Source: Auanema rhodensis
Taxonomy: Eukaryota > Animalia > Nematoda
Length of the DNA stretch: 64,000 bases
Reading direction: 5' to 3'
NCBI GenBank assembly: GCA_964057225.1
Contig: OZ059895.1
Coordinates: forward strand, 11,966,001-12,030,000
Shown one piece after another: positions 37,243-58,105 of this stretch (position 1 is its first letter; the number at the start of each line of letters is the position of its first letter). The translations under genes were made by a program, and so were the position numbers. The notes beneath the pieces were generated by a model. That model was not told where the DNA came from. It made no database searches and saw nothing but the letters and a program-made list of their open reading frames with translations.

Positions 37243-37587
37243 TTTCAAATTTTTTTAACGATCATACCACGTTGAAAGTACGCCATGCAGCTGATTCTCA
37301 ATTTTATCTCTTCCGTAACAAATGTTTTCAATTTTCCAGCAGTTTTACTTAGATAGCTCAACCCAAGGCATTAAAATATCTTCAATCTTATTTCTATATT
37401 ACAGTTATAAACCAGTAGTTTATGAACCTTCATCTTAACTTTACTGTTTCTATCTATTTCCTATTGAAACAAACATTGTTTAAACACTATACAACTGTGA
37501 AACCTTTTTTAATTTATTGTATTTGGAGCTCATAAGATTCAATATCATCGAGGGATTTAGATGTAACGTGGAAAATTACATAACTAA

Positions 37588-37973
37588 TGTTCCATACATA
37601 ACTTATAGAGAAGGCGGTTGACTACGTCAACCGACTTTAGTTTAATCAAATAAAATAAGAAACTAGAATTCGAAAGTTTTTTTATAAAAGATTCCACGGA
37701 ATAAGGTGGAACGTAATTCTTTTTATACAAATTCATTCACTTTTTACATTCTATAGTTTGCTATATAAACCCGTAGAAAACACACTAAGAGAGATCTTCT
37801 ATCATGTAGTTTTAGACTTTAACTTTACTTGTTTGTAGTTTATAACATTTCCTATTGTAGTTTTCTCTATATAATAAAACGGTTGCTAATTTATCTACTT
37901 GTTGAACAATGAAATCCTTGCACAAAATCTATCTGAAACCCTAGTCGGAACCCTAGGGCAATCAAATGGAACG
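37588..37973 (+). repeat. 5' LTR (386 bp)
   Basis: Begins TGTTCCAT, ends ATGGAACG; matches 49044-49429 except T/C at 37638/49094 and 37930/49386. Confidence 0.96.
37762..37769 (+). promoter_or_regulatory. Putative LTR TATA box
   Basis: TATATAAA mid-LTR, ~110 bp upstream of AATAAA, consistent with a U3-R-U5 layout. Confidence 0.5.
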
Positions 37974-37991
37974 TGGAGGTTCCACCGAGAT
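37974..37991 (+). other. Primer-binding site complementary to the tRNA-Gln 3' end
   Basis: TGGAGGTTCCACCGAGAT directly after the LTR is the reverse complement of ATCTCGGTGGAACCT-CCA, the 3' end of metazoan tRNA-Gln as I recall it. Confidence 0.88.
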
Positions 37992-38944
37992 CCGTCTATA
38001 ACGGACGGATCTCTATGGACCATTTCCGCTACTTTTCGAAATCCTTTTTGTATTCAAAATCTTTTATCCTTCATATCAAAACTTTATATAATATTCAAAC
38101 TTCTATTTCTAAAATTGTCAATTTTATCTCCTAAATGTTACCCGAATTTTATCTTTACTTCATTCTTTTATTTCATATATATTAAAAGCATATAATGCAT
38201 GAAAACTCTTTTGAAACAAACAAATCAAAACATTTATTGTCATAATCTATTTATAAAATACTTTAAAAACATTTATTCATTATCATTTATAAGACATTTT
38301 CAAAAAAAAAAAAAAAAAAAATACCAAAACATATTCTTGAATCATCTATTTTTTTTTCTCTTCGTAAAACTTCCTACTCATAAACCATAAACTATTCTAT
38401 TTTATTCAAGCCCGTGAGAAACAATACCAGACTTTCTCGGGACATCGTGCGGAGGCGTACACTTTTGATATAAGACGCGCATTCATTTGAAATTAACCCT
38501 TTTTCGGTCCTATATGAGAATTACAAAACGTAATATTTTTTTGAAGTTAAGTGGTCCCACCTAGCAGAGCCCAGGGGAGCAGAAGCAACGTTAAAAGGGA
38601 ACGTCTTCTGCGGGTTCGCTTAGGCACGAGAAGTCTGGAAAAATGAGTTCGAGAAGCCTGTGTACCTGATCTTGTCCATGACTGAAAAGGCACAATACAC
38701 AGACCACTGTCTCGCATCTCATGCCTCTTCGTGAGATAAGAACCCGGTCCTTTGCTAAGGTCACACGTAGTTGCGGACTCGTGTATGAACCTGACCAGGC
38801 TATTCTCCGACTAGAGACCCGCTGCAGGCTGGCCCCCTGACAGAAACAGGAGTCGCGCATACCAACCCCATATTGTTTCTTACGTTTGTATATATAAGCT
38901 CAGTCTTCGTTGGTTAATAATTTCCTTCCAGGAAACCAACAAAA

Positions 38945-41900
38945 ATGGCTGACACAGCGAATCAAAACCCTCCGCCGGGAAATAATACCCAAAACACTAC
39001 AAATAGCTCAGAGAATACCCAGACAGTGGAAGCAGCACTGCATAGAAACCAAAGAAAAAGAGGACCACCGGATGCATTTCGACAAGATGCGAAACATCCG
39101 AAAACTAACGCTAAATCAAAGAAATTACCCCCCATTCCGGGCACACCGCTAACTGCTAAGAAACTTTATACAACTGCTATCAAAACTACTAGGCATGCGA
39201 TAAGTTTGAATAAAAATAAAGCAACATCTAGTAAATCCACGCCCAAACGCTCTTCTCACTCTCCAAAAACAGTCATTGACACCGGCACTAACACTTATCT
39301 TCCAAATCACACTTCTCCTCAACGTCCTATTCAAACCGAAAACGCGGAAATCCTCACTTCTCCTATTCCTAGAAATTCCCCCTCTTCCACTGATCAATCT
39401 TTGCATGGGCACTCTCTGTCTCCTGTCTCTTCTTCGTCAGACAATAACATAAATTTGACTTCGAATGTTACAGAGCAGAGAAGTCGCCCTCAAATGGCAA
39501 ATCAGATGGAGCAAGATAATCCTCCTATCGCGAGAGCCAACAATGTTTCTATTCGCCATCATAAACCTACGCTTTATGATGGATCCGTACCATTCAATCT
39601 CTACATGCAAAGACTAGAAGGATATTTTGACGCACTTCAAGTCCCTATTGCCGAGAGACTTTCCCATCTTTATCTACTTCTTGGAACGGACAGAGCCGCC
39701 GAAGCTCTGCGAACTATACCAGCAGAAGACTTACGCCAAGGATGGAACCACGTCAAACGTCTACTATCGGAGAAATTACAACCTCCAGAAAAGAGGGATG
39801 CTGCATTTACGAAACTCACCCATTTGAAACAAGGAGAAAACGAAACGGTACAAAATTTCGCGCAACGTTGCAGAAATCTCGCTTACGAATCATGCAACAT
39901 GGACTCAACAGCTGACGAAAGAATACTACGTGTTTCGTTCTTAGGAGGACTAAGAAAGACTTTAAGAACACACGTCAATAACCGCAGCCCTATAACCTTC
40001 GATGCAGCTGTAACTATCGCCGAAACAGTAGAAGCCGACGAAGATCCGTCGCTACATATCAACAACTTGATCAAAAACGTGGAACAATTAGAGATCAATA
40101 ACGGTCTCATAAACCACATGAGAACCTCACAACAGGACAAAACCCATGACGAATCACAAACACACCAACCAAGAACGTTTTATGGAAATCAATCAAGACC
40201 ACAACGCCCACAGGAACAATGGAATCAAAGAAGAGGAGGATACCGCCCACCAAGATACCAGGACGACCGACAAAATAACCGTCCCAACTTCAGACAAGAT
40301 AACAGAAACAATGGATACCAACGAGGATACAACAGTTATCGTAGTCCTCAACGGTACGATAGATACAACGATCGATACGATAACAGAAGAAACGACCGAT
40401 ATGATAACAGAGGAAACGATCGACATGAGCACAGAGGAAACGACCGATACAACCGCGGAAACTATCACGATCGCGGATTCCAACAAAGAAATCGCAGCAC
40501 TTCGCATGGACAACATAACAGGTACAGAGATCGTACCAGAAGCCCTAGCGTTGGTTTTCACGTTAACAAAGTGGAGAAAGAAACAGGAAAAACAAGGAAG
40601 ACACTTCCGTTCATACCGCTATTCTTATCCGTCATCGCTTTATCTTTGATACCCTGTCAGGCAGACAACACCTATCAACTCTGCATCGGCAAACGAGGAG
40701 GTATTTTCCTCGAACCACCTCGACCAACAACCTGCTCAGACTATGCACACAAAGACGGAGTCAAGATAAAAACAGTGGAACTATTTGCAGAAAATATGAA
40801 TTACAAAGAATGGGAAGCATGGAAATGCTCCAAGGAAATCTATAAAGCTTGCGCCTACGACTTATTCTTCATCAGGGAAAACAACCTCACATTACTCCGA
40901 ATAGAACCAGCCACTCCACAAGAATGCAAAACAGCCATTCAAGAGAGACGACACACGGATAACAACCTCAATCGGGAAGCTCCAGGACTATTCAAAACTC
41001 CTATGCCTACCAATACTCAATCAAAATCGTTCTGGTCATCCTCTTGCACAACAAAATCAAGATTCACATTAGAAAGAGGAATGATGACTAGCCTACACGA
41101 TGACACTATAATCTCCGACTTGTTTATCAACACTGAGGGATGCACTAAACAACAAGGTGTATGCAACACCACAAACGCAGTTATCACATGGATCCCACCC
41201 AATAACCATCGAAATTGTGATTACACAACTTTAGGAAAATTCGAAGCACTAATCAATAATGATACTGTTATAATCTCGGAAATACAAGGAGCATTCATCC
41301 TCAACGACGACACGCCAGACCCTATTGCTACAAGATGTATGAATAAGAACATCTATTCAACTGACAGCGGTACGTACATTTCCATCAACGAGTTAAAACC
41401 CCGACGTCAAAAGAGAAAAGCACCACAGGAGTACCCTACGAGATTCTTCAACATCACTATCTATCAATCACTTCGCCTCACAGACAGTTCTACAGGATTA
41501 CTACCAATGTACCAAACATATCGAAATCGTAAAAGACTGGATAGTACCTATAACCTTATAGACTACCTCAAAACATCTAGCGTACACATAGGGCTCATCA
41601 AATTCCTACAACTGGAAGCATCAAAACTAAAATATCGACTCTTATGGCACAACTACACCGATATCAACATGGTTATCCTACACACACTCGCAGAAGCCGA
41701 GATTCGACTTTCCACTGAAATCGCCATTGAACATCTATTACCATCAGAAATTACGGCAAAACTCAGCAAGCAAATCACTATCAGCGACTTTGCCACACGA
41801 TTACTAAACCACAAAGGCGACTATCTCGAACGAGCAAGACAAATAGCACTCGAAATAGCACAGACACCTACAACTCTGGCTACAGGTGAAACTATTCCAT

Positions 41901-44900
41901 CGTTGGAGGAATACTTATACCAACTTTACCCACCCAGAATGACAAAACTGCCTAGATCACGTACAGACACACAGGTCTACACCCAGATAGACGAAATACA
42001 AAAATTTCTCGAATACCTAGCTCAAAACAATCGTCTAAGCCGGATATCAAAAGAGGAAAGAGAAGCAGAAAACAAGAAATGGGCTGATCTCACAAGACAG
42101 TCAAACTCTTCAGCGATTACCTTTCCCAACTATACTCTCATCTTCAACGGACACGCACAAAACTACGGATTCCCGAAAACACTACCTACAGCCAGACCCA
42201 TCACGGAAGAAGACAGCTTATTATTTCAACAAACATATCTTCAGCTCATTGAGTCACCGGGTGCTAGTCCTACGACAACCACTACCACAACTACTACAAC
42301 TACAACAACCACTAGAACCCCTGCAACCACAGTTGACCCGACAACTACTACTTATCGGACACCTTTACCTCAATTCACAACCACACCAAGGAGATATCAT
42401 TATTACCAGAGTACAACAACTCCAGTAACTCCACCACCACGTCTTCTCACTACCACACCTCGCAGAGAACCTCCTAGGACAATTCCCACAACTCGGATTA
42501 CCACAAAACGAGCAACAACAACTCAACCGGTAGAGGAAATTAAATCTCACACAGGATCACAAGCACACCTCAATTTCCTACGAACACGAGCAGATATTAT
42601 TCAAAAATACGATGATCAACTACGACAACAAGATACAAGGTCTCACCTCCAATACTCTACGTCAAAACTCGAGGAGGAAATCTTACAAGCTTTCCAAATA
42701 ACAAAGAAAAGCGTTTGCAGAATGCAAAATAAACAGCTACTTACCTGGTGGGCAATCCTGCAAATTAATCCGACCATAGGAATTCGCACTATGCTTCGTC
42801 GACAGGACATTTCAGCCAAATTCGTCGGAGAACATCTCATCTACGTCATGCCATGCACCCCTGTACAAATAACACATGTATATTCGGATCACAAACGAGA
42901 CGATAAATGTTACCTGGAGACGCCTGTAGACACGGAACATCACGGCAAACTATTCATTACACCAGGATCAAGAGATTTGACACCATATGCTCACATCATA
43001 GCATGCGATATGGCTACATCAGATCCCTACAAAATAAACAATCAATGGATGAAAGATAATTCAACATTGAATGTAACTCACTTCTCATTTTCGGATGAAC
43101 TCACATCTGTAAAAATTGATCACATTAAGTTCAACAATTCCAACATATTTTCAAACCTCACGGAGTCAACATTTCCAATGGCACTGGCTATCTCCTACGG
43201 ATCGAGCTTAGCATCCTTACAAGCCACTCTGCCAGGAAAGCTGAAACCAGTCTTCAAACAGTCTGGATTCTCTAATCTAAATCCAATAGGCATTATAGGA
43301 GGAACAGTTGGAACGACATTAATGTTAGCAGATAACATATCAAACAACGCAGAAAAACAAATCACAAATTTCTTCGAATATGTAGGAGAATCAATTACAG
43401 CATGGATACTAAGGACACTAGCCATTATTGGAGGAATTCTCGTCGCAATAGGACTTATAACTGCTACCATCTGGGCATTAAAAATATATGCATGTACCAC
43501 AAGGATACCAATCAATCAAATAACATTCAAAGAAGAAGAAGAAGAACCAAGGCGAGAAAATAAAGAAATCGAACTTCAGCAATTACAACCACTGAATAAA
43601 TCTCAACAAAACAAATTCTATTCAAGAATCTCCCGATACGATCCCGACGCTCCACTATCAGACAACGACTTTCTAGCCTATCTACCACGATACGCCATGA
43701 AAGAATCAAGGATTAACTACATCGGAGGATCACGACTACCTTTCGTACCTCTCTCCATCCACAATCAGATCTTTACTGCTTTATGGGACACAGGAGCTTC
43801 TATATCATATATGAAGGAAAGCACATTTCAACAACTACCGGCAGCAACGATGGTTGGTGAAAAGACAACAGCTATCGTAGCAAACAAATCACGGTTTTCC
43901 TTCCTGGGCTACACAAGACTTCCAATTGTTATTGGAAAAACAGAGATTGAGCACAAAATACTGATTTCTGCCAACAACCACTGCCCAGCACCTATCTTAT
44001 TAGGAATAGACTTTATAGAAGCCCTCAGCAAAATAGGAATAAATACATCATTGCGACCACTTCAGAATTCATTGCTAGTCGGAGATACAATAGTACCTCT
44101 AGCACAAGACTACTCACCGTGGACCGAGAACCACACGATAGCTCATGTAGTAAGCCTGGAAACTAAACAGTTTTACCCAGGAGAAACCAGATCGCTCACG
44201 TTGGAAGTAGACGATCCAGCATCATACGCACAAGCTTTTATAAGAAGTTCACAACGAATAGGAAAAATGACTTTCGCCCCTACAACTTTCACGCCAACAG
44301 GATACGGGGTTCAGATATTCGCTACAAATATCTCACCCGAAACAATCAAAATTAAAACAAATCAAGGAATCGGAACTGCTTACGCTATCCCAAAAGATAT
44401 CAAAGAACAAAAAGGACAATACGTCCCACCGGAAGCAAGATGGGAAGAACAACTACCATACTTCCCAGACGACTTCATAAAGGATCTCGACGTAACAAAC
44501 ACCATCTTCACCCAATTGGAAAGACAAGAATTAAAGAAAATAGTACTTAGAAATAAGGAGGCTTTCTTGAACGAGGATCGCAATATCGGACTTTTTAAAG
44601 GACCAGTGGAACATAATATACCTATCATACCAGGAAAATTTCCATCATTTCAAATCACATACAGGATCCCTCTAACTCAACAAGAAGAAGTCGAAAAACA
44701 GGTGGAGGAAATGCTCGAACAAGGTATAATAGAACCATCAATTTCTATTACCACAAGTCCCGTTATACTCGTCAAAAAGAAGGACAAAACATACCGTTTT
44801 GTTACGGATTTTCGAGCATTAAATGCCATAACACTAAAGCAGATATACGTCATTTCAAACATACAAGATATTCTCGATCTAGCAGCAGGAGCATGCATCT

Positions 44901-47800
44901 TCACTAACTTTGATTTGGTATCAGGATTCTTCCAAATACCTCTGCGTAAAGAAGATCGACATTTAACAGCATTTACTACAACTAGTGGTACATACCAATA
45001 CTGTCGAATGCCCATGGGACTCTGTGGAGCCCCACATACATTCCAAAACGCAGTACGGTACCTACAACAACATGTACGCTGCAAACTCTTCGTATATCTA
45101 GACGATCTTCTGCTTATATCAGAATCAACCACACAACATCTTCAAGATATCGAAGAAGTTTTGAGAGTAGCAATAGAGCTAGGATTCAAAATTAAGCTGA
45201 AGAAATGCACCTTTGGACAAAGAGAAGTCAAGTTTCTCGGATTTATAGTCGGATATGAGGGAATAAAACCGGACCCTCAGAAAATTAAAGCCATCAGAGA
45301 CTACCCCAGACCAAAGTCAACAACAGGAGTCAGAGCTTTCATGGGCGTCGTTAACTACTTTCGAAGATTCATCAAAAATGCCGCGGGAATTGCCTCACCT
45401 CTCTACGACCTCACAAAAAAGGATAAAGCTTTCACATGGGGAGACAAAGAAGAAAAATCTTTCCAACACCTGAAGAAAGTCCTTTGTCAAGCACCGGTTC
45501 TTCAGGCACCTAGAGCAAAACGACCATACGTAGTTGAAAGCGACGGAAGCATAATTGCAGTAGGAGCAGTTCTATTGCAATCTGCGGATGATCAAGAACC
45601 ATTGCACCCAATAGCTTTCGCTAGCCGTAAACTAAACAAAGCAGAAAGGAACTACCCCCCGATTGAGATCGAAGCCTTAGCCCTAACTTTCGCAGTTCAT
45701 CAGTTTCGCACCTACATCTTAGGAGCACCGATCAAAATCATAACCGATCATAGACCCTTAACTAGCCTTATGACAAGAAAAGACCTCATAGGAAGACTAG
45801 CCAAATTTCAAATAGTACTCCAAGAGTATGATATTGAAATTATCTATCGCCCAGGACGTCTTAATAGCGTTTGTGACGCATTATCAAGATACTTCGAAGA
45901 CGAAATCAACGAAGCGAAGGAAAGAAAGAAGAAAACGAAAGAATCTCCCACGCATCAAATCTCTACTATTACAACTATCACGGACCTTCGGACAATTCAA
46001 GAGGAAACAGAATGGATCATGGAAACAAAAGAAAAGATTCAGAACAAAACAGCAGGAAGGCAACTAACAGATCGATATATAGTTCAAAATAATATTCTCT
46101 ATGCAAAGCCAAAAACAGCATTCCAAACACCTCGAGCCGTTCTACCCAATGATCCAACAATTACTACAGCAATAATTGATAAGTTTCATAAGGACCCATT
46201 ACTAGGAGCTCATCTAGGAATCAACAAAACACATGACTCAATTCTACGCCGTTATACATGGACAGGAATGCAAGAAGATATCACCAACTACGTCAACAGA
46301 TGTCTTCAGTGCGCAAAAAGGAAAAATAACCCGCATGAAGCAACGGTGGAACCCATGAGAAACTTTCCCACCGTTTCACAACCTTGGGAAAGAGTTCACA
46401 TGGACATTCTCGGACCACTACCACGAACACAAAACGGGAACAGATATATCTTATCAATACAGGACGCGTTCTCCAAATGGATAATAGCAACACCATTATT
46501 AAGACAAACATCAGAAGAAATCATAACAGCAATTAAGAAAAACCTGTTCTTTGTTTTCGGACCACCAAAAAGGATCATAACGGACAACGGATCCAATTTT
46601 GTTTCTCACGAATTCAAAACAATGTGCGAACAACTAGGTTCCGAGCATCATACAACTATGCCATATTACAAGAATGCAAATGGACAAGTGGAACGACTAC
46701 ACAGAACACTAGAAGAAGCACTAACGTCGTACGTAAATACGGAACAGGACAATTGGGATGATATACTACCTAAGATAGTATTCACACTCAACAGGCTACC
46801 TAATGCCACAACTCGCACACCGCCCTACGATTGTATCTTTGGTCAGGCAGCGCGACTACCAATCGACCACAACCTGGACACTCCCGCACCCACTCTCAAA
46901 CCCACAGGAGATTTACATGAGAAAATATACGAAAGGATAACAAGGAACAATGAGAAGATGAAGAAGAAATACGACGAGGCACACAAGATACAAGAACGAG
47001 AACTCTACGTGGATAACAGAGCTCTCGTCAAACGGGCAAAGCCCACCAACAAACTGCAAGCAGTCAGTGATGGACCGTACCTCATAAAAGAAATAAATAA
47101 AAATAATGTCATATTAGCAGATGACGACGGGAATAGAATACGGGCTCATAAGAATAATATAAGATATTTTCCACCCGATGACAATAACATCGAGGAAAGC
47201 GAGCACGGCAGAAATGACGCGGGATCCGCTATTTATAGCAACAGGTCCCGGCACGATCAGGTCAATACGCGCGCTCAGAACAACGGTCAAGCCACGCCCC
47301 CAATTTCTGATTCGGACAGCGATAACGAGGACGAGTTCTACGAACAAAGCCGACCTATAATAACAACTAAAGAAACAATAACACCGCAGGAAGATACGTT
47401 GGAAAGACAACAAGAAAGTTATCAATCGGAATCTGGACTAGATACAGCAGACAAGACATCTACGAACAAAGAAGAAAACAACCAATTCCAACAATTGGTC
47501 GACAAAATTGGAGAAGAAACAAGACAAGAGCTCTACGAAGAAAGACAAAAAGAGTTACCTACAATCAAAAGATGGAGCTCAGCTCTCAAATTGGCACTCG
47601 GTTTAGAAGACAAAAATCCGATTACTCCTCCAAAACCGTTTCACGTACCAATAAGGTACAACAGCGTGATACCCCCTTTAAAACCTAAAAGTAGGCTTAC
47701 ACGCTCTCAGATACCTGATGCCCATATCAATTTACCAAACACATCGGTTGAACGAAAGAAACGACCTTCAACAGTGATAGGAGGACCAACAACTATCTAA
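38945..47800 (+). CDS. Gag-Env-Pol polyprotein (2951 aa)
   Basis: Uninterrupted ORF with capsid motifs, signal peptide plus Cys-rich glycoprotein plus TM, DTGAS protease, YLDD RT, RNase H and HHCC/DDE/GPY integrase. Confidence 0.96.
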   Translation: MADTANQNPPPGNNTQNTTNSSENTQTVEAALHRNQRKRGPPDAFRQDAKHPKTNAKSKKLPPIPGTPLTAKKLYTTAIKTTRHAISLNKNKATSSKSTPKRSSHSPKTVIDTGTNTYLPNHTSPQRPIQTENAEILTSPIPRNSPSSTDQSLHGHSLSPVSSSSDNNINLTSNVTEQRSRPQMANQMEQDNPPIARANNVSIRHHKPTLYDGSVPFNLYMQRLEGYFDALQVPIAERLSHLYLLLGTDRAAEALRTIPAEDLRQGWNHVKRLLSEKLQPPEKRDAAFTKLTHLKQGENETVQNFAQRCRNLAYESCNMDSTADERILRVSFLGGLRKTLRTHVNNRSPITFDAAVTIAETVEADEDPSLHINNLIKNVEQLEINNGLINHMRTSQQDKTHDESQTHQPRTFYGNQSRPQRPQEQWNQRRGGYRPPRYQDDRQNNRPNFRQDNRNNGYQRGYNSYRSPQRYDRYNDRYDNRRNDRYDNRGNDRHEHRGNDRYNRGNYHDRGFQQRNRSTSHGQHNRYRDRTRSPSVGFHVNKVEKETGKTRKTLPFIPLFLSVIALSLIPCQADNTYQLCIGKRGGIFLEPPRPTTCSDYAHKDGVKIKTVELFAENMNYKEWEAWKCSKEIYKACAYDLFFIRENNLTLLRIEPATPQECKTAIQERRHTDNNLNREAPGLFKTPMPTNTQSKSFWSSSCTTKSRFTLERGMMTSLHDDTIISDLFINTEGCTKQQGVCNTTNAVITWIPPNNHRNCDYTTLGKFEALINNDTVIISEIQGAFILNDDTPDPIATRCMNKNIYSTDSGTYISINELKPRRQKRKAPQEYPTRFFNITIYQSLRLTDSSTGLLPMYQTYRNRKRLDSTYNLIDYLKTSSVHIGLIKFLQLEASKLKYRLLWHNYTDINMVILHTLAEAEIRLSTEIAIEHLLPSEITAKLSKQITISDFATRLLNHKGDYLERARQIALEIAQTPTTLATGETIPSLEEYLYQLYPPRMTKLPRSRTDTQVYTQIDEIQKFLEYLAQNNRLSRISKEEREAENKKWADLTRQSNSSAITFPNYTLIFNGHAQNYGFPKTLPTARPITEEDSLLFQQTYLQLIESPGASPTTTTTTTTTTTTTTRTPATTVDPTTTTYRTPLPQFTTTPRRYHYYQSTTTPVTPPPRLLTTTPRREPPRTIPTTRITTKRATTTQPVEEIKSHTGSQAHLNFLRTRADIIQKYDDQLRQQDTRSHLQYSTSKLEEEILQAFQITKKSVCRMQNKQLLTWWAILQINPTIGIRTMLRRQDISAKFVGEHLIYVMPCTPVQITHVYSDHKRDDKCYLETPVDTEHHGKLFITPGSRDLTPYAHIIACDMATSDPYKINNQWMKDNSTLNVTHFSFSDELTSVKIDHIKFNNSNIFSNLTESTFPMALAISYGSSLASLQATLPGKLKPVFKQSGFSNLNPIGIIGGTVGTTLMLADNISNNAEKQITNFFEYVGESITAWILRTLAIIGGILVAIGLITATIWALKIYACTTRIPINQITFKEEEEEPRRENKEIELQQLQPLNKSQQNKFYSRISRYDPDAPLSDNDFLAYLPRYAMKESRINYIGGSRLPFVPLSIHNQIFTALWDTGASISYMKESTFQQLPAATMVGEKTTAIVANKSRFSFLGYTRLPIVIGKTEIEHKILISANNHCPAPILLGIDFIEALSKIGINTSLRPLQNSLLVGDTIVPLAQDYSPWTENHTIAHVVSLETKQFYPGETRSLTLEVDDPASYAQAFIRSSQRIGKMTFAPTTFTPTGYGVQIFATNISPETIKIKTNQGIGTAYAIPKDIKEQKGQYVPPEARWEEQLPYFPDDFIKDLDVTNTIFTQLERQELKKIVLRNKEAFLNEDRNIGLFKGPVEHNIPIIPGKFPSFQITYRIPLTQQEEVEKQVEEMLEQGIIEPSISITTSPVILVKKKDKTYRFVTDFRALNAITLKQIYVISNIQDILDLAAGACIFTNFDLVSGFFQIPLRKEDRHLTAFTTTSGTYQYCRMPMGLCGAPHTFQNAVRYLQQHVRCKLFVYLDDLLLISESTTQHLQDIEEVLRVAIELGFKIKLKKCTFGQREVKFLGFIVGYEGIKPDPQKIKAIRDYPRPKSTTGVRAFMGVVNYFRRFIKNAAGIASPLYDLTKKDKAFTWGDKEEKSFQHLKKVLCQAPVLQAPRAKRPYVVESDGSIIAVGAVLLQSADDQEPLHPIAFASRKLNKAERNYPPIEIEALALTFAVHQFRTYILGAPIKIITDHRPLTSLMTRKDLIGRLAKFQIVLQEYDIEIIYRPGRLNSVCDALSRYFEDEINEAKERKKKTKESPTHQISTITTITDLRTIQEETEWIMETKEKIQNKTAGRQLTDRYIVQNNILYAKPKTAFQTPRAVLPNDPTITTAIIDKFHKDPLLGAHLGINKTHDSILRRYTWTGMQEDITNYVNRCLQCAKRKNNPHEATVEPMRNFPTVSQPWERVHMDILGPLPRTQNGNRYILSIQDAFSKWIIATPLLRQTSEEIITAIKKNLFFVFGPPKRIITDNGSNFVSHEFKTMCEQLGSEHHTTMPYYKNANGQVERLHRTLEEALTSYVNTEQDNWDDILPKIVFTLNRLPNATTRTPPYDCIFGQAARLPIDHNLDTPAPTLKPTGDLHEKIYERITRNNEKMKKKYDEAHKIQERELYVDNRALVKRAKPTNKLQAVSDGPYLIKEINKNNVILADDDGNRIRAHKNNIRYFPPDDNNIEESEHGRNDAGSAIYSNRSRHDQVNTRAQNNGQATPPISDSDSDNEDEFYEQSRPIITTKETITPQEDTLERQQESYQSESGLDTADKTSTNKEENNQFQQLVDKIGEETRQELYEERQKELPTIKRWSSALKLALGLEDKNPITPPKPFHVPIRYNSVIPPLKPKSRLTRSQIPDAHINLPNTSVERKKRPSTVIGGPTTI
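39566..40040 (+). other. gag: Gag capsid-like domain (aa ~208-365)
   Basis: PTLYDGS..F..Y..RLE.YF start, LKQGENETVQNFAQRCRNL major-homology-like motif, FLGGL...R...TFDAAV.IAE end, typical of Ty3/gypsy Gag. Confidence 0.85.
40367..40459 (+). repeat. Coding 24-bp tandem repeat (NDRYDNRR/NDRYDNRG/NDRHEHRG/NDRY-NRG)
   Basis: Four imperfect units starting at 40367, 40391, 40415 and 40439. Confidence 0.85.
40601..43480 (+). other. env: Envelope glycoprotein module, class III (herpes gB/chuvirus G-like), aa ~553-1512 of the polyprotein
   Basis: Internal signal LPFIPLFLSVIALSLIPCQA; many Cys and N-x-S/T sequons; furin site RQKR 41405-41416; gB-like LQY...CRMQNKQL..W....NP.....SAKFVG....CTPV...CY..P; TM TLAIIGGILVAIGLITATIWAL 43415-43480. 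Confidence 0.85.
43712..44030 (+). other. Aspartic protease domain
   Basis: ALWDTGASISYM (catalytic Asp codon at 43787) and C-terminal ILLGIDF. Confidence 0.92.
44600..45255 (+). other. Reverse transcriptase domain (Ty3/gypsy type)
   Basis: SPVILVKKKDKTYRFVTDFRALN, DLVSGFFQI, MPMGLCGAPHTFQ, YLDD at 45095-45106, KC.F....VKFLG. Confidence 0.95.
45524..45893 (+). other. RNase H domain
   Basis: VESDGSIIAVGAVLLQ, AFASRKLNKAERNY...E.EALA, TDHRPL, N.VCDALSR. Confidence 0.93.
46187..47170 (+). other. Integrase domain (HHCC, DDE, GPY)
   Basis: H..PLLGAHLG...C..C; VHMDILGPLP; IITDNGSNF; NGQVERLHRTL; DGPYLI. Confidence 0.94.
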
Positions 47801-47973
47801 AACAAGTTTGAAAATTCATTTTTTTATCATAATTACTTTATTTATACTTTTGCATCATTTTCCCATTTTTCTCATCAAACAAACAACAATAATCAGTCAT
47901 TCAAGTTTTCGAATTTTGATTTTTTTTTTGTCATCAATCACACTATCTCTCTAAAAATTCTACCTTATCTGTT

Positions 47974-47974
<1 letters not shown>

Positions 47975-48010
<36 letters not shown>

Positions 48011-48033
48011 GATTCATCACCTACAGTAACCTG

Positions 48034-48066
<33 letters not shown>

Positions 48067-48089
48067 GATTCATCACCTACAGTAACCTG

Positions 48090-48119
<30 letters not shown>
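47975..48119 (+). repeat. Poly(A)-interspersed tandem duplication (two copies of CGATTCATCACCTACAGTAACCTG between A30-35 tracts)
   Basis: Identical 24-mers at 48010-48033 and 48066-48089. Confidence 0.9.
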
Positions 48120-48123
<4 letters not shown>

Positions 48124-48202
48124 CTTTGCATGGAGCTATATAAGCTCAAAAACACCTCAAGCAAAAAAAAAAAAAAAAAAAAATTCCTCCGAATTCGACA
48201 AG

Positions 48203-48832
48203 ATGTCGCTCAACCTTCCACCTCTACCCTGCGAGACACCCATCGAAATGATCAAGGAAAAATGGATCAACATCCATTCACTCCAAATTGAGCTACAAGA
48301 GCTGGAGAAAGACAACCCCAAGAAACTAAAGATTCTTCGGTCCTTCTCGGAGAATCTATCCAGAGTGACTCTATTGATAGAAACTCTGGAAAGGTTACAA
48401 TGTTTATGTAACCATCAAGAAGACGAAATGGCCAAAATGGCAAAGAACTGGTTGTCAGCCACCGTCCGCACCAAGTTCACCATCCGCAAACTGCGTCAAG
48501 AATTAGGCTATTCAATCCCAGAATACGAAGGAAGCGCTGATCTAATCCCGAGATGGGCCGCAGAAGAAATCTACAAGAGTTGGACAGAAGAGAGTTTAAA
48601 CAAGTCCGCAAACCAGTCAATAAGGAAAGCTGGAGAACGAGTTGGCCAAGCATTGAAGATTTTAATGGCAACTGGCGCCACCACCCAGAACCAGAAAGAT
48701 ATGAAAAAGAAGATATGCAACCAGACGACAGATTTGCTGACAGATCTCAGTCTCTATCACACATGGACCGTCGCTGGGCAGCATACAGCAACCGACTTTC
48801 AAATGGGACAAATCAATGAGGAGGAAGGATGA
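48203..48832 (+). CDS. Accessory ORF2 of the retroelement, unknown function (209 aa, apparently alpha-helical)
   Basis: Intact ATG-TGA ORF between A/T-homopolymer non-coding flanks; upstream TATATAA (48137) and downstream AATAAA (48860-48865). Confidence 0.75.
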   Translation: MSLNLPPLPCETPIEMIKEKWINIHSLQIELQELEKDNPKKLKILRSFSENLSRVTLLIETLERLQCLCNHQEDEMAKMAKNWLSATVRTKFTIRKLRQELGYSIPEYEGSADLIPRWAAEEIYKSWTEESLNKSANQSIRKAGERVGQALKILMATGATTQNQKDMKKKICNQTTDLLTDLSLYHTWTVAGQHTATDFQMGQINEEEG

Positions 48833-49043: not shown

Positions 49044-49429
49044 TGTTCCATACATAACTTATAGAGAAGGCGGTTGACTACGTCAACCGACTTCAGTTTA
49101 ATCAAATAAAATAAGAAACTAGAATTCGAAAGTTTTTTTATAAAAGATTCCACGGAATAAGGTGGAACGTAATTCTTTTTATACAAATTCATTCACTTTT
49201 TACATTCTATAGTTTGCTATATAAACCCGTAGAAAACACACTAAGAGAGATCTTCTATCATGTAGTTTTAGACTTTAACTTTACTTGTTTGTAGTTTATA
49301 ACATTTCCTATTGTAGTTTTCTCTATATAATAAAACGGTTGCTAATTTATCTACTTGTTGAACAATGAAATCCTTGCACAAAATCCATCTGAAACCCTAG
49401 TCGGAACCCTAGGGCAATCAAATGGAACG
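49044..49429 (+). repeat. 3' LTR (386 bp)
   Basis: Direct repeat of 37588-37973, followed by TSD CTAA and the resumed 5S spacer. Confidence 0.96.
49329..49334 (+). terminator. Putative polyadenylation signal in 3' LTR
   Basis: AATAAA (equivalent to 37873-37878 in the 5' LTR). Confidence 0.5.
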
Positions 49430-49498
49430 CTAACATGAAATTGGAAAAAAAACAATAACGAGGATAAATATGTAAATCATTCAATATCAGATATTTTC

Positions 49499-49617
49499 GC
49501 TTACGACCATACCACGTTGAAAGAACGCCATCCCGTCCGATCTGGCAAGTCAAGCAACGTTGGGCCCGGTTAGTACTTGGATCGGAGACAGCTTGGGAAT
49601 CCCGGGTGCCGTAAGCT
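49499..49617 (+). rRNA. 5S rRNA, variant C
   Basis: T26A, G92A; first gene after the 3' LTR. Confidence 0.8.
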
Positions 49618-50028
49618 TTTCAAATTTTTTTAACGATCATACCACGTTGAAAGTACACCATGCAGCTGATTTTCAATTTTATCTCTTCCGTAACAAATGT
49701 TTTCAATTTTCCAGCAGTTTTACTTAGATAGCTCAACCCAAGGCATTAAAATATCTTCAATCTTATTTCTATATTACAGTTATAAACCAGTAGTTTATGA
49801 ACCTTCATCTTAACTTTACTGTTTCTATCTATTTCCTATTGAAACAAACATTGTTTAAACACTATACAACTGTGAAACCTTTTTTAATTTATTGTATTTG
49901 GATCTCATAAGATTTGATATCATCGAGGGATTTAGATGTTACGTAGAAAATTACATAACTAACATGAAATTTGGAAAAAAAACAATAACGAGGATAAGTA
50001 TGTAAATCATTGAATATCAGATATTTTC

Positions 50029-50147
50029 GCTTACGACCATACCACGTTGAAAGTACGCCATCCCGTCCGATCTGGCAAGTCAAGCAACGTTGGGCCCGGT
50101 TAGTACTTGGATCGGAGACGGCTTGGGAATCCCGGGTGCCGTAAGCT
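50029..50147 (+). rRNA. 5S rRNA (type A)
   Basis: Consensus. Confidence 0.93.
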
Positions 50148-51356
50148 TTTCAAATTTTTTTAACGATCATACCACGTTGAAAGTACGCCATGCAGCTGAT
50201 TTTCAATTTTATCTCTTCCGTAACAAATGTTTTCAATTTTCCAGCAGTTTTACTTAGATAGCTCAACCCAAGGCATTAAAATATCTTCAATCTTATTTCT
50301 ATATTACAGTTATAAACCAGTAGTTTATGAACCTTCATCTTAACTTTACTGTTTCTATCTATTTCCTATTGAAACAAACATTGTTTAAACACTATACAAC
50401 TGTGAAACCTTTTTTAATTTATTGTATTTGGAGCTCATAAGATTCAATATCATCGAGGGATTTAGATGTAACGTGGAAAATTACATAACTAACATGAAAT
50501 TGGAAAAAAAACAATAACGAGGATAAGTATGTAAATCATTGAATATCAGATATTTCCGCTTACGACCATACCACGTTGAAAGTACGCCAAGCAGCTGATT
50601 TTCAATTTTATCTCTTCCGTAACAAATGTTTTCAATTTTCCAGCAGTTTTACTTAGATAGCTCAACCCAAGGCATCAAAATATCTTCAATCTTATTTCTT
50701 TATTACAGTTATAAACCAGTAGTTTATGAACCTTCATCTTAACTTTACTGTTTCTATCTATTTCCTATTGAAACAAACATTGTTTAAACACTATACAACT
50801 GTGAAACCTTTTTTAATTTATTGTATTTGGAGCTCATAAGATTCAATATCATCGAGGGATTTAGATGTAACGTGGAAAATTACATAACTAACATGAAATT
50901 GGAAAAAAAACAATAACGAGGATAAGTATGTAAATCATTGAATATCAGATATTTCCGCTTACGACCATACCACGTTGAAAGTACGCCATGCAGCTGATTT
51001 TCAATTTTATCTCTTCCGTAACAAATGTTTTCAATTTTCCAGCAGTTTTACTTAGATAGCTCAACCCAAGGCATCAAAATATCTTCAATCTTATTTCTTT
51101 ATTACAGTTATAAACCAGTAGTTTATGAACCTTCATCTTAACTTTACTGTTTCTATCTATTTCCTATTAAAACAAACGTTGTTTAAACACTATACAACTG
51201 TGAAACCTTTTTTAATTTATTGTATTTGGATCTCATAAGATTTGATATCATCGAGGGATTTAGATGTTACGTAGAAAATTACATAACTAACATGAAATTT
51301 GGAAAAAAAACAATAACGAGGATAAGTATGTAAATCATTGAATATCAGATATTTTC

Positions 51357-51475
51357 GCTTACGACCATACCACGTTGAAAGTACGCCATCCCGTCCGATC
51401 TGGCAAGTCAAGCAACGTTGGGCCCGGTTAGTACTTGGATCGGAGACGGCTTGGGAATCCCGGGTGCCGTAAGCT
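51357..51475 (+). rRNA. 5S rRNA (type A)
   Basis: Consensus. Confidence 0.93.
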
Positions 51476-51886
51476 TTTCAATTTTTTTTAACGATCATAC
51501 CACGTTGAAAGTACGCAATGCAGCTGATTTTCAATTTTATCTCTTCCGTAACAAATGTTTTCAATTTTCTAGCAGTTTTACTTAGATAGCTCAACCCAAG
51601 GCATTAAAATATCTTCAATCTTATTTCTATATTACAGTTATAAACCAGTAGTTTATGAACCTTCATCTTAACTTTACTGTTTCTATCTATTTCCTATTGA
51701 AACAAACATTGTTTAAACACTATACAACTGTGAAACCTTTTTTAATTTATTGTATTTGGATCTCATAAGATTTGATATCATCGAGGGATTTAGATGTTAC
51801 GTAGAAAATTACATAACTAACATGAAATTTGGAAAAAAAACAATAACGAGGATAAGTATGTAAATCATTGAATATCAGATATTTTC

Positions 51887-52005
51887 GCTTACGACCATAC
51901 CACGTTGAAAGTACGCCATCCCGTCCGATCTGGCAAGTCAAGCAACGTTGGGCCCGGTTAGTACTTGGATCGGAGACGGCTTGGGAATCCCGGGTGCCGT
52001 AAGCT
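51887..52005 (+). rRNA. 5S rRNA (type A)
   Basis: Consensus. Confidence 0.93.
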
Positions 52006-52416
52006 TTTCAAATTTTTTTAACGATCATACCACGTTGAAAGTACGCCATGCAGCTGATTTTCAATTTTATCTCTTCCGTAACAAATGTTTTCAATTTTCC
52101 AGCAGTTTTACTTAGATAGCTCAACCCAAGGCATTAAAATATCTTCAATCTTATTTCTATATTACAGTTATAAACCAGTAGTTTATGAACCTTCATCTTA
52201 ACTTTACTGTTTCTATCTATTTCCTATTGAAACAAACATTGTTTAAACACTATACAACTGTGAAACCTTTTTTAATTTATTGTATTTGGATCTCATAAGA
52301 TTTGATATCATCGAGGGATTTAGATGTTACGTAGAAAATTACATAACTAACATGAAATTTGGAAAAAAAACAATAACGAGGATAAGTATGTAAATCATTA
52401 AATATCAGATATTTTC

Positions 52417-52535
52417 GCTTACGACCATACCACGTTGAAAGTACGCCATCCCGTCCGATCTGGCAAGTCAAGCAACGTTGGGCCCGGTTAGTACTTGGAT
52501 CGGAGACGGCTTGGGAATCCCGGGTGCCGTAAGCT
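52417..52535 (+). rRNA. 5S rRNA (type A)
   Basis: Consensus. Confidence 0.93.
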
Positions 52536-53744
52536 TTTCAAATTTTTTTAACGATCATACCACGTTGAAAGTACGCCATGCAGCTGATTTTCAATTTTAT
52601 CTCTTCCGTAACAAATGTTTTCAATTTTCCAGCAGTTTTACTTAGATAGCTCAACCCAAGGCATTAAAATATCTTCAATCTTATTTCTATATTACAGTTA
52701 TAAACCAGTAGTTTATGAACCTTCATCTTAACTTTACTGTTTCTATCTATTTCCTATTGAAACAAACATTGTTTAAACACTATACAACTGTGAAACCTTT
52801 TTTAATTTATTGTATTTGGAGCTCATAAGATTCAATATCATCGAGGGATTTAGATGTAACGTGGAAAATTACATAACTAACATGAAATTGGAAAAAAAAC
52901 AATAACGAGGATAAGTATGTAAATCATTGAATATCAGATATTTCCGCTTACGACCATACCACGTTGAAAGTACGCCATGCAGCTGATTTTCAATTTTATC
53001 TCTTCCGTAACAAATGTTTTCAATTTTCCAGCAGTTTTACTTAGATAGCTCAACCCAAGGCATCAAAATATCTTCAATCTTATTTCTTTATTACAGTTAT
53101 AAACCAGTAGTTTATGAACCTTCATCTTAACTTTACTGTTTCTATCTATTTCCTATTGAAACAAACATTGTTTAAACACTATACAACTGTGAAACCTTTT
53201 TTAATTTATTGTATTTGGAGCTCATAAGATTCAATATCATCGAGGGATTTAGATGTAACGTGGAAAATTACATAACTAACATGAAATTGGAAAAAAAACA
53301 ATAACGAGGATAAGTATGTAAATCATTGAATATCAGATATTTCCGCTTACGACCATACCACGTTGAAAGTACGCCATGCAGCTGATTTTCAATTTTATCT
53401 CTTCCGTAACAAATGTTTTCAATTTTCCAGCAGTTTTACTTAGATAGCTCAACCCAAGGCATCAAAATATCTTCAATCTTATTTCTTTATTACAGTTATA
53501 AACCAGTAGTTTATGAACCTTCATCTTAACTTTACTGTTTCTATCTATTTCCTATTAAAACAAACGTTGTTTAAACACTATACAACTGTGAAACCTTTTT
53601 TAATTTATTGTATTTGGATCTCATAAGATTTGATATCATCGAGGGATTTAGATGTTACGTAGAAAATTACATAACTAACATGAAATTTGGAAAAAAAACA
53701 ATAACGAGGATAAGTATGTAAATCATTGAATATCAGATATTTTC

Positions 53745-53863
53745 GCTTACGACCATACCACGTTGAAAGTACGCCATCCCGTCCGATCTGGCAAGTCAAG
53801 CAACGTTGGGCCCGGTTAGTACTTGGATCGGAGACGGCTTGGGAATCCCGGGTGCCGTAAGCT
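53745..53863 (+). rRNA. 5S rRNA (type A)
   Basis: Consensus. Confidence 0.93.
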
Positions 53864-54274
53864 TTTCAAATTTTTTTAACGATCATACCACGTTGAAAGT
53901 ACGCCATGCAGCTGATTTTCAATTTTATCTCTTCCGTAACAAATGTTTTCAATTTTCCAGCAGTTTTACTTAGATAGCTCAACCCAAGGCATTAAAATAT
54001 CTTCAATCTTATTTCTATATTACAGTTATAAACCAGTAGTTTATGAACCTTCATCTTAACTTTACTGTTTCTATCTATTTCCTATTGAAACAAACATTGT
54101 TTAAACACTATACAACTGTGAAACCTTTTTTAATTTATTGTATTTGGATCTCATAAGATTTGATATCATCGAGGGATTTAGATGTTACGTAGAAAATTAC
54201 ATAACTAACATGAAATTTGGAAAAAAAACAATAACGAGGATAAGTATGTAAATCATTAAATATCAGATATTTTC

Positions 54275-54393
54275 GCTTACGACCATACCACGTTGAAAGT
54301 ACGCCATCCCGTCCGATCTGGCAAGTCAAGCAACGTTGGGCCCGGTTAGTACTTGGATCGGAGACGGCTTGGGAATCCCGGGTGCCGTAAGCT
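54275..54393 (+). rRNA. 5S rRNA (type A)
   Basis: Consensus. Confidence 0.93.
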
Positions 54394-54803
54394 TTTCAAA
54401 TTTTTTTAACGATCATACCACGTTGAAAGTACGCCATGCAGCTGATTTTCAATTTTATCTCTTCCGTAACAAATGTTTTCAATTTTCCCGCAGTTTTACT
54501 TAGATAGCTCAACCCAAGGCATCAAAATATCTTCAATCTTATTTCTTTATTACAGTTATAAACCAGTAGTTTATGAACCTTCATCTTAACTTTACTGTTT
54601 CTATCTATTTCCTATTAAAACAAACGTTGTTTAAACACTATACAACTGTGAAACCTTTTTTAATTTATTGTATTTGGAGCTCATAAGATTCAATATCATC
54701 GAGGGATTTAGATGTAACGTGGAAAATTACATAACTAACATGAAATTGGAAAAAAAACAATAACGAGGATAAATATGTAAATCATTGAATATCAGATATT
54801 TTC

Positions 54804-54922
54804 GCTTACGACCATACAACGTTGAAAGTACGCCATCCCGTCCGATCTGGCAAGTCAAGCAACGTTGGGCCCGGTTAGTACTTGGATCGGAGACAGCTTG
54901 GGAATCCCGCGTGCCGTAAGCT
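54804..54922 (+). rRNA. 5S rRNA, divergent copy
   Basis: C15A, G92A, G107C. Confidence 0.72.
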
Positions 54923-55731
54923 TTTCAAATTTTTTTAACGATCATACCACGTTGAAAGTACGCCATGCAGCTGATTTTCAATTTTATCTCTTCCGTAACA
55001 AATGTTTTCAATTTTCCAGCAGTTTTACTTAGATAGCTCAACCCAAGCCATTAAAATATCTTCAATCTTATTTCTATATTACAGTTATAAACCAGTAGTT
55101 TATGAACCTTCATCTTAACTTTACTGTTTCTATCTATTTCCTATTGAAACAAACATTGTTTAAACACTATACAACTGTGAAACCTTTTTTAATTTATTGT
55201 ATTTGGAGCTCATAAGATTCAATATCATCGAGGGGTTTAGATGTAACGTGGAAAATTACATAACTAACATGAAATTGGAAAAAAAACAATAACGAGGATA
55301 AGTATGTAAATCATTGAATATCAGATATTTCCGCTTACGACCATACCACGTTGAAAGTACGCCATGCAGCTGATTTTCAATTTTATCTCTTCCGTAACAA
55401 ATGTTTTCAATTTTCCAGCAGTTTTACTTAGATAGCTCAACCCAAGGCATCAAAATATCTTCAATCTTATTTCTTTATTACAGTTATAAACCAGTAGTTT
55501 ATGAACCTTCATCTTAACTTTACTGTTTCTATCTATTTCCTATTAAAACAAACGTTGTTTAAACACTATACAACTGTGAAACCTTTTTTAATTTATTGTA
55601 TTTGGAGCTCATAAGATTCAATATCATCGAGGGATTTAGATGTAACGTGGAAAATTACATAACTAACATGAAATTGGAAAAAAAACAATAACGAGGATAA
55701 ATATGTAAATCATTGAATATCAGATATTTTC

Positions 55732-55850
55732 GCTTACGACCATACCACGTTGAAAGTACGCCATCCCGTCCGATCTGGCAAGTCAAGCAACGTTGGGCCC
55801 GGTTAGTACTTGGATCGGAGACAGCTTGGGAATCTCGGGTGCCGTAAGCT
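55732..55850 (+). rRNA. 5S rRNA, divergent copy
   Basis: G92A, C104T. Confidence 0.78.
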
Positions 55851-56260
55851 TTTCAAATTTTTTTAACGATCATACCACGTTGAAAGTACGCCATGCAGCT
55901 GATTTTCAATTTTATCTCTTCCGTAACAAATGTTTTCAATTTTCCAGCAGTTTTACTTAGATAGCTCAACCCAAGCCATTAAAATATCTTCAATCTTATT
56001 TTTATATTACAGTTATAAACCAGTAGTTTATGAACCTTCATCTTAACTTTACTGTTTCTATCTATTTCCTATTGAAACAAACATTGTTTAAACACTATAC
56101 AACTGTGAAACCTTTTTTAATTTATTGTATTTGGATCTCATAAGATTTGATATCATCGAGGGATTTAGATGTTACGTAGAAAATTACATAACTAACATGA
56201 AATTGGAAAAAAAACAATAACGAGGATAAGTATGTAGATCATTGAATATCAGATATTTTC

Positions 56261-56379
56261 GCTTACGACCATACCACGTTGAAAGTACGCCATCCCGTCC
56301 GATCTGGCAAGTCAAACAACGTTGGGCCCGGTTAGTACTTGGATCGGAGACGGCTTCTGAATCCCGGGTGCCGTAAGCA
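56261..56379 (+). rRNA. 5S rRNA, variant B
   Basis: Variant B changes. Confidence 0.75.
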
Positions 56380-57986: not shown

Positions 57987-58105
57987 GCTTACGACCATAC
58001 CACGTTGAAAGAACGCCATCCCGTCCGATCTGGCAAGTCAAGCAACGTTGGGCCCGGTTAGTACTTGGATCGGAGACAGCTTGGGAATCCCGGGTGCCGT
58101 AAGCT
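57987..58105 (+). rRNA. 5S rRNA, variant C
   Basis: T26A, G92A. Confidence 0.8.

What the first reader, a model, noticed from the sequence alone, without database searches (positions are those of the whole stretch)
40664..43480. Env is a herpes gB/chuvirus-like class III fusogen, not the F-type env of insect errantiviruses
Seen: SHLQY(42647)...VCRMQNKQLLTWWAILQINPTIGIRTMLRRQDISAKFVGEHLIYVMPCTPV...KCYLETPV. By eye this matches the domain III/IV pattern I recall for HSV gB (LQF...WCELQNHELTLW...NP...VSAR.LGD....CVPV...CY.RP). It then continues LFITPGSRDL....IAC, a chuvirus-G-like motif. Candidate bipartite fusion loops are AYDLFF and SFWSS, and an RQKR furin site lies at 41405. A gB-like env is established for the Ascaris BEL/Pao element Tas; here it sits on a Ty3/gypsy backbone, implying independent capture or exchange (inference).
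Basis: partly seen in the sequence, partly recalled or inferred. Interest (0 to 1): 0.8.

Follow-up and report, generated by a model that had tools for sequence, protein, structure and literature searches.

The report
Nematode retroelement with herpes-gB-like envelope
A young, intact retrovirus-like jumping gene, likely of a nematode, carries a protein predicted to fold like the herpesvirus membrane-fusion protein gB between its capsid and enzyme genes; that kind of element is already published, and the only unusual part is a long insert that might serve for attachment or shielding.

Summary
Region 40604-43492 lies inside one 2951-aa gag-env-pol ORF of an intact Ty3/gypsy element. Its LTRs differ at 2 of 386 bases, with a 4-bp target duplication and a tRNA-Gln primer site, and it sits in a 5S rDNA array. 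The env scores above Pfam's cut-off for Monjiviricetes_fusion, and its model aligns to HSV-1 gB (Z 12.8, 400 residues, rmsd 7.1). Both proposed fusion loops are supported. GAG-ENV-POL gypsy elements with gB-type env are described for nematodes, bryozoans and flatworms (PMC13524379), and this scan has met them before in other genomes (flatworm elements). 'Independent capture' is not supported for this element: env and RT both group with the same Caenorhabditis japonica element. Exchange between gypsy and BEL/Pao does show deeper in the family (AU p 0.003). The unusual part is a roughly 370-aa insert after the furin site: a helical domain with no fold match plus a Thr-rich stalk. Verdict: new member of a known kind.

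The parts
37584..37587 (+). Target-site duplication CTAA (left)
   Evidence: Same 4 bases at 49430-49433; the empty site is present in 48 exact copies of the joined flanks in the array
37588..37973 (+). 5' LTR, 386 bp, TG...CG ends with an 8-bp terminal inverted repeat (1 mismatch)
   Evidence: 2 differences from the 3' LTR
37974..37991 (+). Primer-binding site, tRNA-Gln
   Evidence: Reverse complement of the first 12 nt equals the Gln_UUG_CUG 12-mer listed in PMC13524379 supplement 1
38945..40603 (+). Gag (aa 1-553): capsid domain, then an R/G/Y/D-rich nucleocapsid-like region without a CCHC knuckle
   Evidence: PF03732 aa 248-337, E 4e-6; no CCHC pattern in the polyprotein
40604..40663 (+). 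Internal signal peptide of Env (aa 554-573); predicted cleavage after CQA
   Evidence: One of only two hydrophobic segments in the 2951 aa; the cleavage site is inferred from the -3/-1 rule (own knowledge)
40664..41404 (+). Env N-terminal part: class III domains I/II plus the N-terminal strand of domain IV
   Evidence: pLDDT mostly 75-97; the family profile matches rhabdovirus G at E about 1e-5; Cys 580, 597, 628, 661, 701, 733, 740, 758, 798 conserved in about 90% of aligned rows, Cys636 in 43 of 63
40853..40873 (+). Predicted fusion loop 1 (F641-F642 at the tip of a beta hairpin)
   Evidence: DSSP turn at model residues 68-69; column 641 is 94% hydrophobic; an aromatic residue in 49 of 52 homologues against 57% background
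41027..41041 (+). Predicted fusion loop 2 (SFWSS, just before Cys701)
   Evidence: An aromatic residue in 65 of 70 homologues against 69% background
41405..41416 (+). Furin-type motif RQKR
   Evidence: an R-x-K/R-R motif lies in the linker of 36 of 88 homologues
41417..42265 (+). Helical insert domain (aa 825-1107), lineage-specific, no fold match
   Evidence: 36% identity to Auanema protein P0002 and 22% to P0003; model pLDDT 60, pTM 0.57 from 4 rows; best Z 4.2
42266..42529 (+). Thr/Pro-rich mucin-like stalk (88 aa, 45% Thr, 17% Pro)
   Evidence: Mixed Thr codons, so not a simple-repeat artefact; pLDDT below 50
42560..43390 (+). Env C-terminal part: long domain III helix, domain IV crown, domain V arm, membrane-proximal helices
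   Evidence: 69-residue helix at aa 1206-1274; Pfam hits aa 1233-1376; VIA alignment to gB
43391..43492 (+). Transmembrane anchor (aa 1483-1516)
   Evidence: Hydropathy up to 2.35
43493..47800 (+). Env tail followed in frame by Pol: protease (43739-44026), RT (44771-45250), RNase H (45437-45829), integrase (46154-46669 core)
   Evidence: Pfam; best PDB hit Ty3 Gag-Pol, E 3.6e-111
48203..48832 (+). [quoted passage not shown]
   Evidence: No Pfam hit at E up to 1; coordinates
49044..49429 (+). 3' LTR
49430..49433 (+). Target-site duplication CTAA (right); the next 5S gene starts 65 nt further on

Best explanation
The region is the envelope part of one gag-env-pol polyprotein of a young Ty3/gypsy LTR element, likely of a rhabditid nematode, and is predicted to be a gB-type class III membrane-fusion protein that was likely inherited together with pol rather than newly captured. 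Mechanism (inferred from family knowledge unless marked). During translation the internal signal peptide would thread Env into the ER. Signal peptidase would free the Env N-terminus and leave the peptide as a membrane anchor on Gag. The TM helix would return the tail and Pol to the cytosol, where the element's protease would release the enzymes. Furin would cut at RQKR, with the two halves held by disulfides. Env trimers on budded particles would insert the two aromatic loops into a target membrane and refold into the gB-like hairpin, letting particles enter neighbouring or germline cells. The helical insert and Thr-rich stalk would sit at the new N-terminus of the anchored half, as an attachment or shielding module. 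Shown: sequence anatomy, profile and fold match, loop conservation, tree placement. Inferred: processing, trimer, fusion activity, the insert's role, the host.
For: Pfam PF24664 above cut-off. A profile of 100 rows hits herpes gB at E 3e-15 and rhabdovirus G at about 1e-5. Foldseek gives HSV-1 gB at E 5e-11, and in BFVD nyami-, chu-, xinmo- and rhabdo-like G and gB at E 1e-18 to 1e-11. VIA-align gives Z 12.8, 400 aligned, rmsd 7.1 with HSV-1 gB, and Z 12.7, 403 aligned, rmsd 5.4 with HCMV gB. Loops. Signal peptide and TM. The RT-RNase H tree (13 rows) joins the query with P0005 at SH-aLRT 98, and the env tree (48 rows) puts it in a 7-row all-gypsy clade containing P0005 at 99. P0001-P0005 are from C. 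brenneri, Auanema sp. and C. japonica. The kind is published (PMC13524379).
Against: Mean pLDDT of the ectodomain model is only 63.9 (pTM 0.42), with 349 of 909 residues below 50, mostly the insert and C-terminal end. Global TM-scores to gB are at most about 0.3 by query length. PF00606 is below its curated cut-off. The loop-2 columns are gappy and not perfectly in register. The host was not identified directly because no genome is held. The trees are quick-search, without a root, and hold long branches.
Confidence: 0.88

Rival explanations
1. The env was captured recently and independently by this lineage, from a chu/nyami-like RNA virus or from a BEL/Pao element such as Tas.
For: The best predicted-structure matches are nyami- and rhabdo-like viral glycoproteins. 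BEL/Pao and gypsy envs interleave, with 3 changes on the tree and at least 2 forced by strong branches; one BEL clade is rejected at p-AU 0.003.
Against: Identity to viral proteins is 8-18% against about 30% to nematode gypsy envs. Env and RT share the same nearest relative. No BEL row falls in the query's clade.
Confidence: 0.06
2. The protein has the class III fold but no longer fuses membranes; the long insert marks a switch to another job such as adhesion, decoy or particle stabilisation.
For: The domain II-III linker is 460 aa against a median of 89.5 in 88 homologues. No activity data exist here.
Against: Both aromatic loops, all core cysteines, the furin motif, signal peptide and TM are retained in an uninterrupted ORF. 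33 of 88 homologues also have linkers of 120 aa or more.
Confidence: 0.08
3. It is an F-type (class I) env like that of insect errantiviruses.
For: A furin motif is present.
Against: No hydrophobic fusion peptide follows RQKR, and the positive matches are all class III.
Confidence: 0.01

Closest known systems
GAG-ENV-POL HSV/gB-type 'ancient errantiviruses' of Nematoda (Chary & Hayashi, eLife 2026, PMC13524379), nearest Nematoda_Chromadorea_Clat_errantivirus_4 (group Nematoda_C1)
   Same: Gene order, Ty3/gypsy Pol, gB-type env, a cysteine bridge beside the fusion loops. The tRNA-Gln primer site is shared by 8 of 36 listed nematode elements, and the identical 12-mer by Clat_4 and Ctro_1. Clat_4's domain I-II is about 80% identical by eye to P0004, which is 29% identical to the query.
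   Different: No listed element has 386-bp LTRs, and none of the 15 domain I-II rows seen matches the query by eye, so this element appears unlisted. Its linker is about 460 aa against about 220 in P0004, P0005 and P0001. The paper's main text has no occurrence of 'mucin', 'polyprotein', 'accessory' or 'rDNA'; its figures were not visible.
Non-canonical nematode ERVs (Sacco et al. 2022, J Gen Virol 103:1739)
   Same: Env placed before pol in nematode metaviruses, as described by PMC13524379 and by the title in its reference list.
   Different: Paper not held; could not compare elements or inserts.
Herpesvirus gB and Monjiviricetes/chuvirus G (class III fusogens)
   Same: Fold of domains I-V, bipartite loops, long central helix.
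   Different: 8-16% identity; below the PF00606 cut-off; embedded in a retroelement polyprotein; no gD or gH/gL partner genes in the element; large insert.
BEL/Pao elements with gB-like env (Ascaris Tas, PMC9094657 passage; mosquito elements of Dezordi 2020 as cited in PMC13524379)
   Same: Same env family: 15 of 150 hits carry BEL/Pao pol domains upstream of the env.
   Different: Different backbone and order (gag-pol-env); none falls in the query's env clade. Tas itself was not identified among the hits.

Membership tests
Class III viral fusogen (gB-like) | gB-like multi-domain fold (domains I-V) | tested here: met
   VIA Z 12.8, 400 aligned, rmsd 7.1 with HSV-1 gB 8rgz; Foldseek E 5e-11; predicted model only
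Class III viral fusogen (gB-like) | Two internal hydrophobic fusion loops at the tip of domain I | tested here: met
   Hairpin tip F641-F642; aromatics in 49 of 52 and 65 of 70 homologues against 57% and 69% background
Class III viral fusogen (gB-like) | Long central helix of domain III followed by a beta-rich domain IV | tested here: met
   Helix at model residues 633-701, strands 716-802, pLDDT about 70-96
Class III viral fusogen (gB-like) | Signal peptide and C-terminal membrane anchor | tested here: met
   Only two hydrophobic segments, aa 552-574 and 1483-1518
Class III viral fusogen (gB-like) | Homotrimer | not tested
   No trimer model was obtained
Class III viral fusogen (gB-like) | Membrane-fusion activity | not testable with these tools
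   Needs a bench assay
Pfam PF24664 Monjiviricetes_fusion | Score above the curated cut-off | tested here: met
   67-70 bits against 27, over 144 residues only
Herpesvirus gB proper (PF00606) | Score above the curated cut-off | tested here: not met
   30.5-32.5 bits against 43
F-type errantivirus env (class I) | Hydrophobic fusion peptide directly after the furin site | tested here: not met
   No 19-residue window above 1.6 between aa 575 and 1482
Ty3/gypsy (Metaviridae) | Pol order PR-RT-RNase H-IN and Ty3-like RT | tested here: met
   best PDB hit Ty3 Gag-Pol, E 3.6e-111, against 1.5e-37 for the best retroviral RT
Ty3/gypsy (Metaviridae) | LTRs, tRNA primer site, short target duplication | tested here: met
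Nematode GAG-ENV-POL gB-type errantiviruses (PMC13524379) | GAG-ENV-POL order with gB-type env | tested here: met
Nematode GAG-ENV-POL gB-type errantiviruses (PMC13524379) | Nematode host | tested here: inconclusive
   The five best env hits are from Caenorhabditis and Auanema; no genome is held for the window
Nematode GAG-ENV-POL gB-type errantiviruses (PMC13524379) | Placement in the paper's 'ancient errantivirus' Pol tree and the mini domain in the Pol bridge | not tested
Nematode GAG-ENV-POL gB-type errantiviruses (PMC13524379) | Multiple near-identical genomic copies (most, not all, members) | not testable with these tools
   No genome held
BEL/Pao (Tas-like) | Peptidase_A17, DUF1759 and DUF5641 domains and gag-pol-env order | tested here: not met
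   Absent from the query, present in BEL hits such as P0058 and P0083

The most novel reading that the evidence does not exclude
In nematode gypsy elements the furin loop of the gB-type fusogen is a swappable cargo slot. This lineage has filled it with a helical domain of undescribed fold on a mucin-like stalk that acts as a built-in receptor-binding module, doing the job that gD and gH/gL do for herpes gB. At least two unrelated insert families occupy the slot among the hits (query/P0002/P0003 and P0028/31/39/47/95/140/9/14). This would give a one-protein class III entry machine and a handle on how such elements pick their target cells.
Probability: 0.25. Interest if true: 0.6.

Novelty: new member of a known kind. 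Interest (0 to 1): 0.3.

Why it matters
It confirms with profiles and structure that a nematode-type gypsy element carries a gB-type fusogen, but this adds one element to a published group of 36 nematode members. The eLife paper says the entry mechanism of gB-type errantiviruses is unknown because they lack gD and gH/gL. The variable insert found here is a concrete candidate for the missing attachment or regulatory function. The site 65 nt upstream of a 5S gene raises, on one insertion only, the question of Pol III-gene targeting in an animal gypsy element.

Tried and rejected
Word-index protein searches found nothing at E 0.001 for the whole env, the insert or the insert alignment. This is weak evidence: the same env gave 262 hits by full HMMER. 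The insert model had no BFVD match at E 0.001, and 0 of 48,161 PDB representatives reached Z 5 (best 4.2). The Atlas gave no usable hit for homologue P0002. With a 4-row, pLDDT-60 model none of this shows a new fold. No F-protein family or structure was listed or 73 (absence only). No trimer model was obtained. A simple-repeat artefact for the Thr stretch was rejected (mixed codons). A recent env swap was rejected. Sacco 2022 is not held. Searches for a mucin-like insert in such envs and for 5S-array insertion in nematodes listed no paper on the point. The library lacks most subscription journals, and the eLife figures and the rest of its supplement 2 were not seen. No earlier notes exist for this genome or sequence.
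Full report
Observation. The finding lies in frame within a single ORF, 38921-47800 (+), 2951 aa from the first Met at 38945. Every motif quoted is present; SHLQY starts at 42641, not 42647. The window has only this ORF, two overlapping short frames and one downstream ORF above 150 aa. The rest is a tandem array of 399- and 529-bp units carrying 5S rRNA genes.

The element. Self-comparison gives LTRs at 37588-37973 and 49044-49429, 386 bp with 2 differences. A CTAA duplication flanks them, and the empty site occurs in 48 exact copies in the array. The primer site matches the tRNA-Gln 12-mer listed for Caenorhabditis elements in supplement 1 of PMC13524379. Pfam orders the polyprotein as capsid (248-337), fusion glycoprotein (1233-1376), protease, RT, RNase H, integrase. 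The best PDB match of Pol is Ty3 (E 3.6e-111). It is therefore a young, uninterrupted Ty3/gypsy insertion with gag-env-pol order.

The env. Only two hydrophobic segments exist in the polyprotein, an internal signal peptide (554-573) and a TM helix (1483-1516). PF24664 scores 67-70 bits (cut-off 27) and PF00606 scores 30-32 bits (cut-off 43). A full HMMER search gave 262 relatives at E 0.001, of which the best 150 were returned. I aligned 99 of these, mostly the shorter ones, with the query (A1). Its profile hits herpes gB at E 3e-15 and rhabdovirus G at about 1e-5. The AlphaFold2 model of aa 574-1482 has mean pLDDT 63.9 and pTM 0.42, with a confident core and a poor insert and C-terminal end. 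Foldseek ranks HSV gB first in PDB (E 5e-11; 119 matches at E 0.001) and nyami-, rhabdo-, chu-like G and gB in BFVD. VIA-align gives Z 12.8 over 400 residues at rmsd 7.1 with HSV-1 gB, and Z 12.7 over 403 at rmsd 5.4 with HCMV gB (a second look at Foldseek's hits, not an independent search). F641-F642 sits at a hairpin tip next to Cys636, and SFWSS precedes Cys701. Aromatic residues occupy these loops in 49 of 52 and 65 of 70 homologues, against 57% and 69% in background windows. No hydrophobic peptide follows RQKR, so it is not F-type. No trimer was modelled and no activity is shown.

Origin. The five best hits come from C. brenneri, Auanema sp. and C. japonica, so the host is likely a rhabditid nematode (inference; no genome is held). 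I labelled the 150 hits by backbone: 43 env-before-pol, 8 gag-env, 15 BEL/Pao, 84 unlabelled. Of the 66 labelled, 19 lacked one env half and were left out. In the 48-row env tree the query lies in a 7-row all-gypsy clade (SH-aLRT 99). In the 13-row RT-RNase H tree it is sister to P0005 (98), a member of that same clade. So the env travelled with its pol. Across the family, BEL and gypsy envs interleave (3 changes, 2 forced), and a single BEL clade is rejected (p-AU 0.003). Labels were set before the tree, but the test was chosen after seeing it; the trees are quick-search, unrooted and hold long branches. Exchange or repeated capture thus occurred at depth, direction unknown.

The insert. From Cys798 to Cys1258 the query has 460 aa, against a median of 89.5 in the 88 of 150 hits with both halves; only one is longer. 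33 of 88 have 120 aa or more, and 20 of those 33 have a T/S/P-rich window, against 0 of 55 short linkers (partly a length effect). Residues 825-1107 are 36% identical to P0002 and 22% to P0003, with a short shared helix in P0001, P0004 and P0012. A second, unrelated insert family links eight other hits. The insert model is all-helical (pLDDT 60, pTM 0.57, 4 rows) and has no convincing match. An 88-aa stretch with 45% Thr follows. After furin cleavage both would form the N-terminus of the anchored half. Attachment or shielding is my inference; a resemblance to mucin-bearing viral glycoproteins is recalled, not tested.

Mechanism. Most likely (0.88): internal signal peptide, luminal Env, TM return, protease release of Pol, furin cleavage, trimeric class III fusogen on budded particles, entry into neighbouring or germline cells. 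Anatomy and fold are shown; processing, trimer, budding and fusion are inferred from gB, rhabdovirus G and Drosophila gypsy biology (own knowledge, and the discussion of PMC13524379).

What is known. PMC13524379 (seen: abstract, sections 6, 7, 14 and 22 whole, first parts of sections 5 and 9, passages, all 36 nematode rows of supplement 1, 15 rows of supplement 2; no figures) reports that nematode, bryozoan and flatworm errantiviruses carry only gB-type env in GAG-ENV-POL order. It credits Sacco et al. 2022 (title and citation only; not held) for the nematode case. The Tas statement was seen as a passage in PMC9094657. [quoted passage not shown] Passages of PMC5911963 list Pol III-targeting windows of 1-33 bp for gypsy elements and about 1 kb for Ty1. 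Dezordi 2020 was seen as a listing only. Earlier notes of this scan describe the same layout in other genomes, one with a sugar-rich insert; these are leads, not support.

Verdict. Observation confirmed, fold interpretation right, novelty claim not. This is a new member of a known kind, interest 0.3. The best open angle is the variable insert slot (probability 0.25 of being a built-in attachment module, interest 0.6 if so).

Noticed in passing
window 1-37583 and 49434-64000: 5S rDNA array with two unit types: about 54 units of 528-530 bp with a full 5S gene plus a short partial copy, and about 51 units of 399-400 bp with only the first 33 nt or so of 5S (59 full and 110 partial matches). Nearly half the units look like 5S-deleted derivatives. 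Rfam found no other RNA family in 30000-55000.
   Followed up: partly
window 49430-49499: The element sits 65 nt upstream of a 5S gene, in the same orientation. One insertion cannot show targeting; published gypsy Pol III-targeting windows are 1-33 bp.
   Followed up: partly
window 48203-48832: ORF2, 209 aa, no Pfam hit, in the position where C. elegans Cer1 encodes part of its RNA-export protein CERV; homology not tested.
   Followed up: partly
window 47970-48125: Long poly-A runs with a duplicated unit of about 56 bp between pol and ORF2; may be a real tandem repeat or a long-read homopolymer artefact.
   Followed up: no
window 40100-40600 (Gag aa 390-550): No CCHC zinc knuckle; an R/G/Y/D-rich repetitive region instead, with one PPxY-type motif at aa 435, a possible late domain. 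No late-domain motif was found in the Env tail.
   Followed up: partly
window 37974-38944: Nearly 1 kb of leader between the primer site and the first Met, AT-rich in its first half and GC-richer in its second; possible packaging or splice signals, not examined.
   Followed up: no
P0009, P0026, P0048 (hits): Related gag-env-pol polyproteins with extras: P0009 and P0026 have two protease-like stretches, and P0048 has an RRM domain before env.
   Followed up: no
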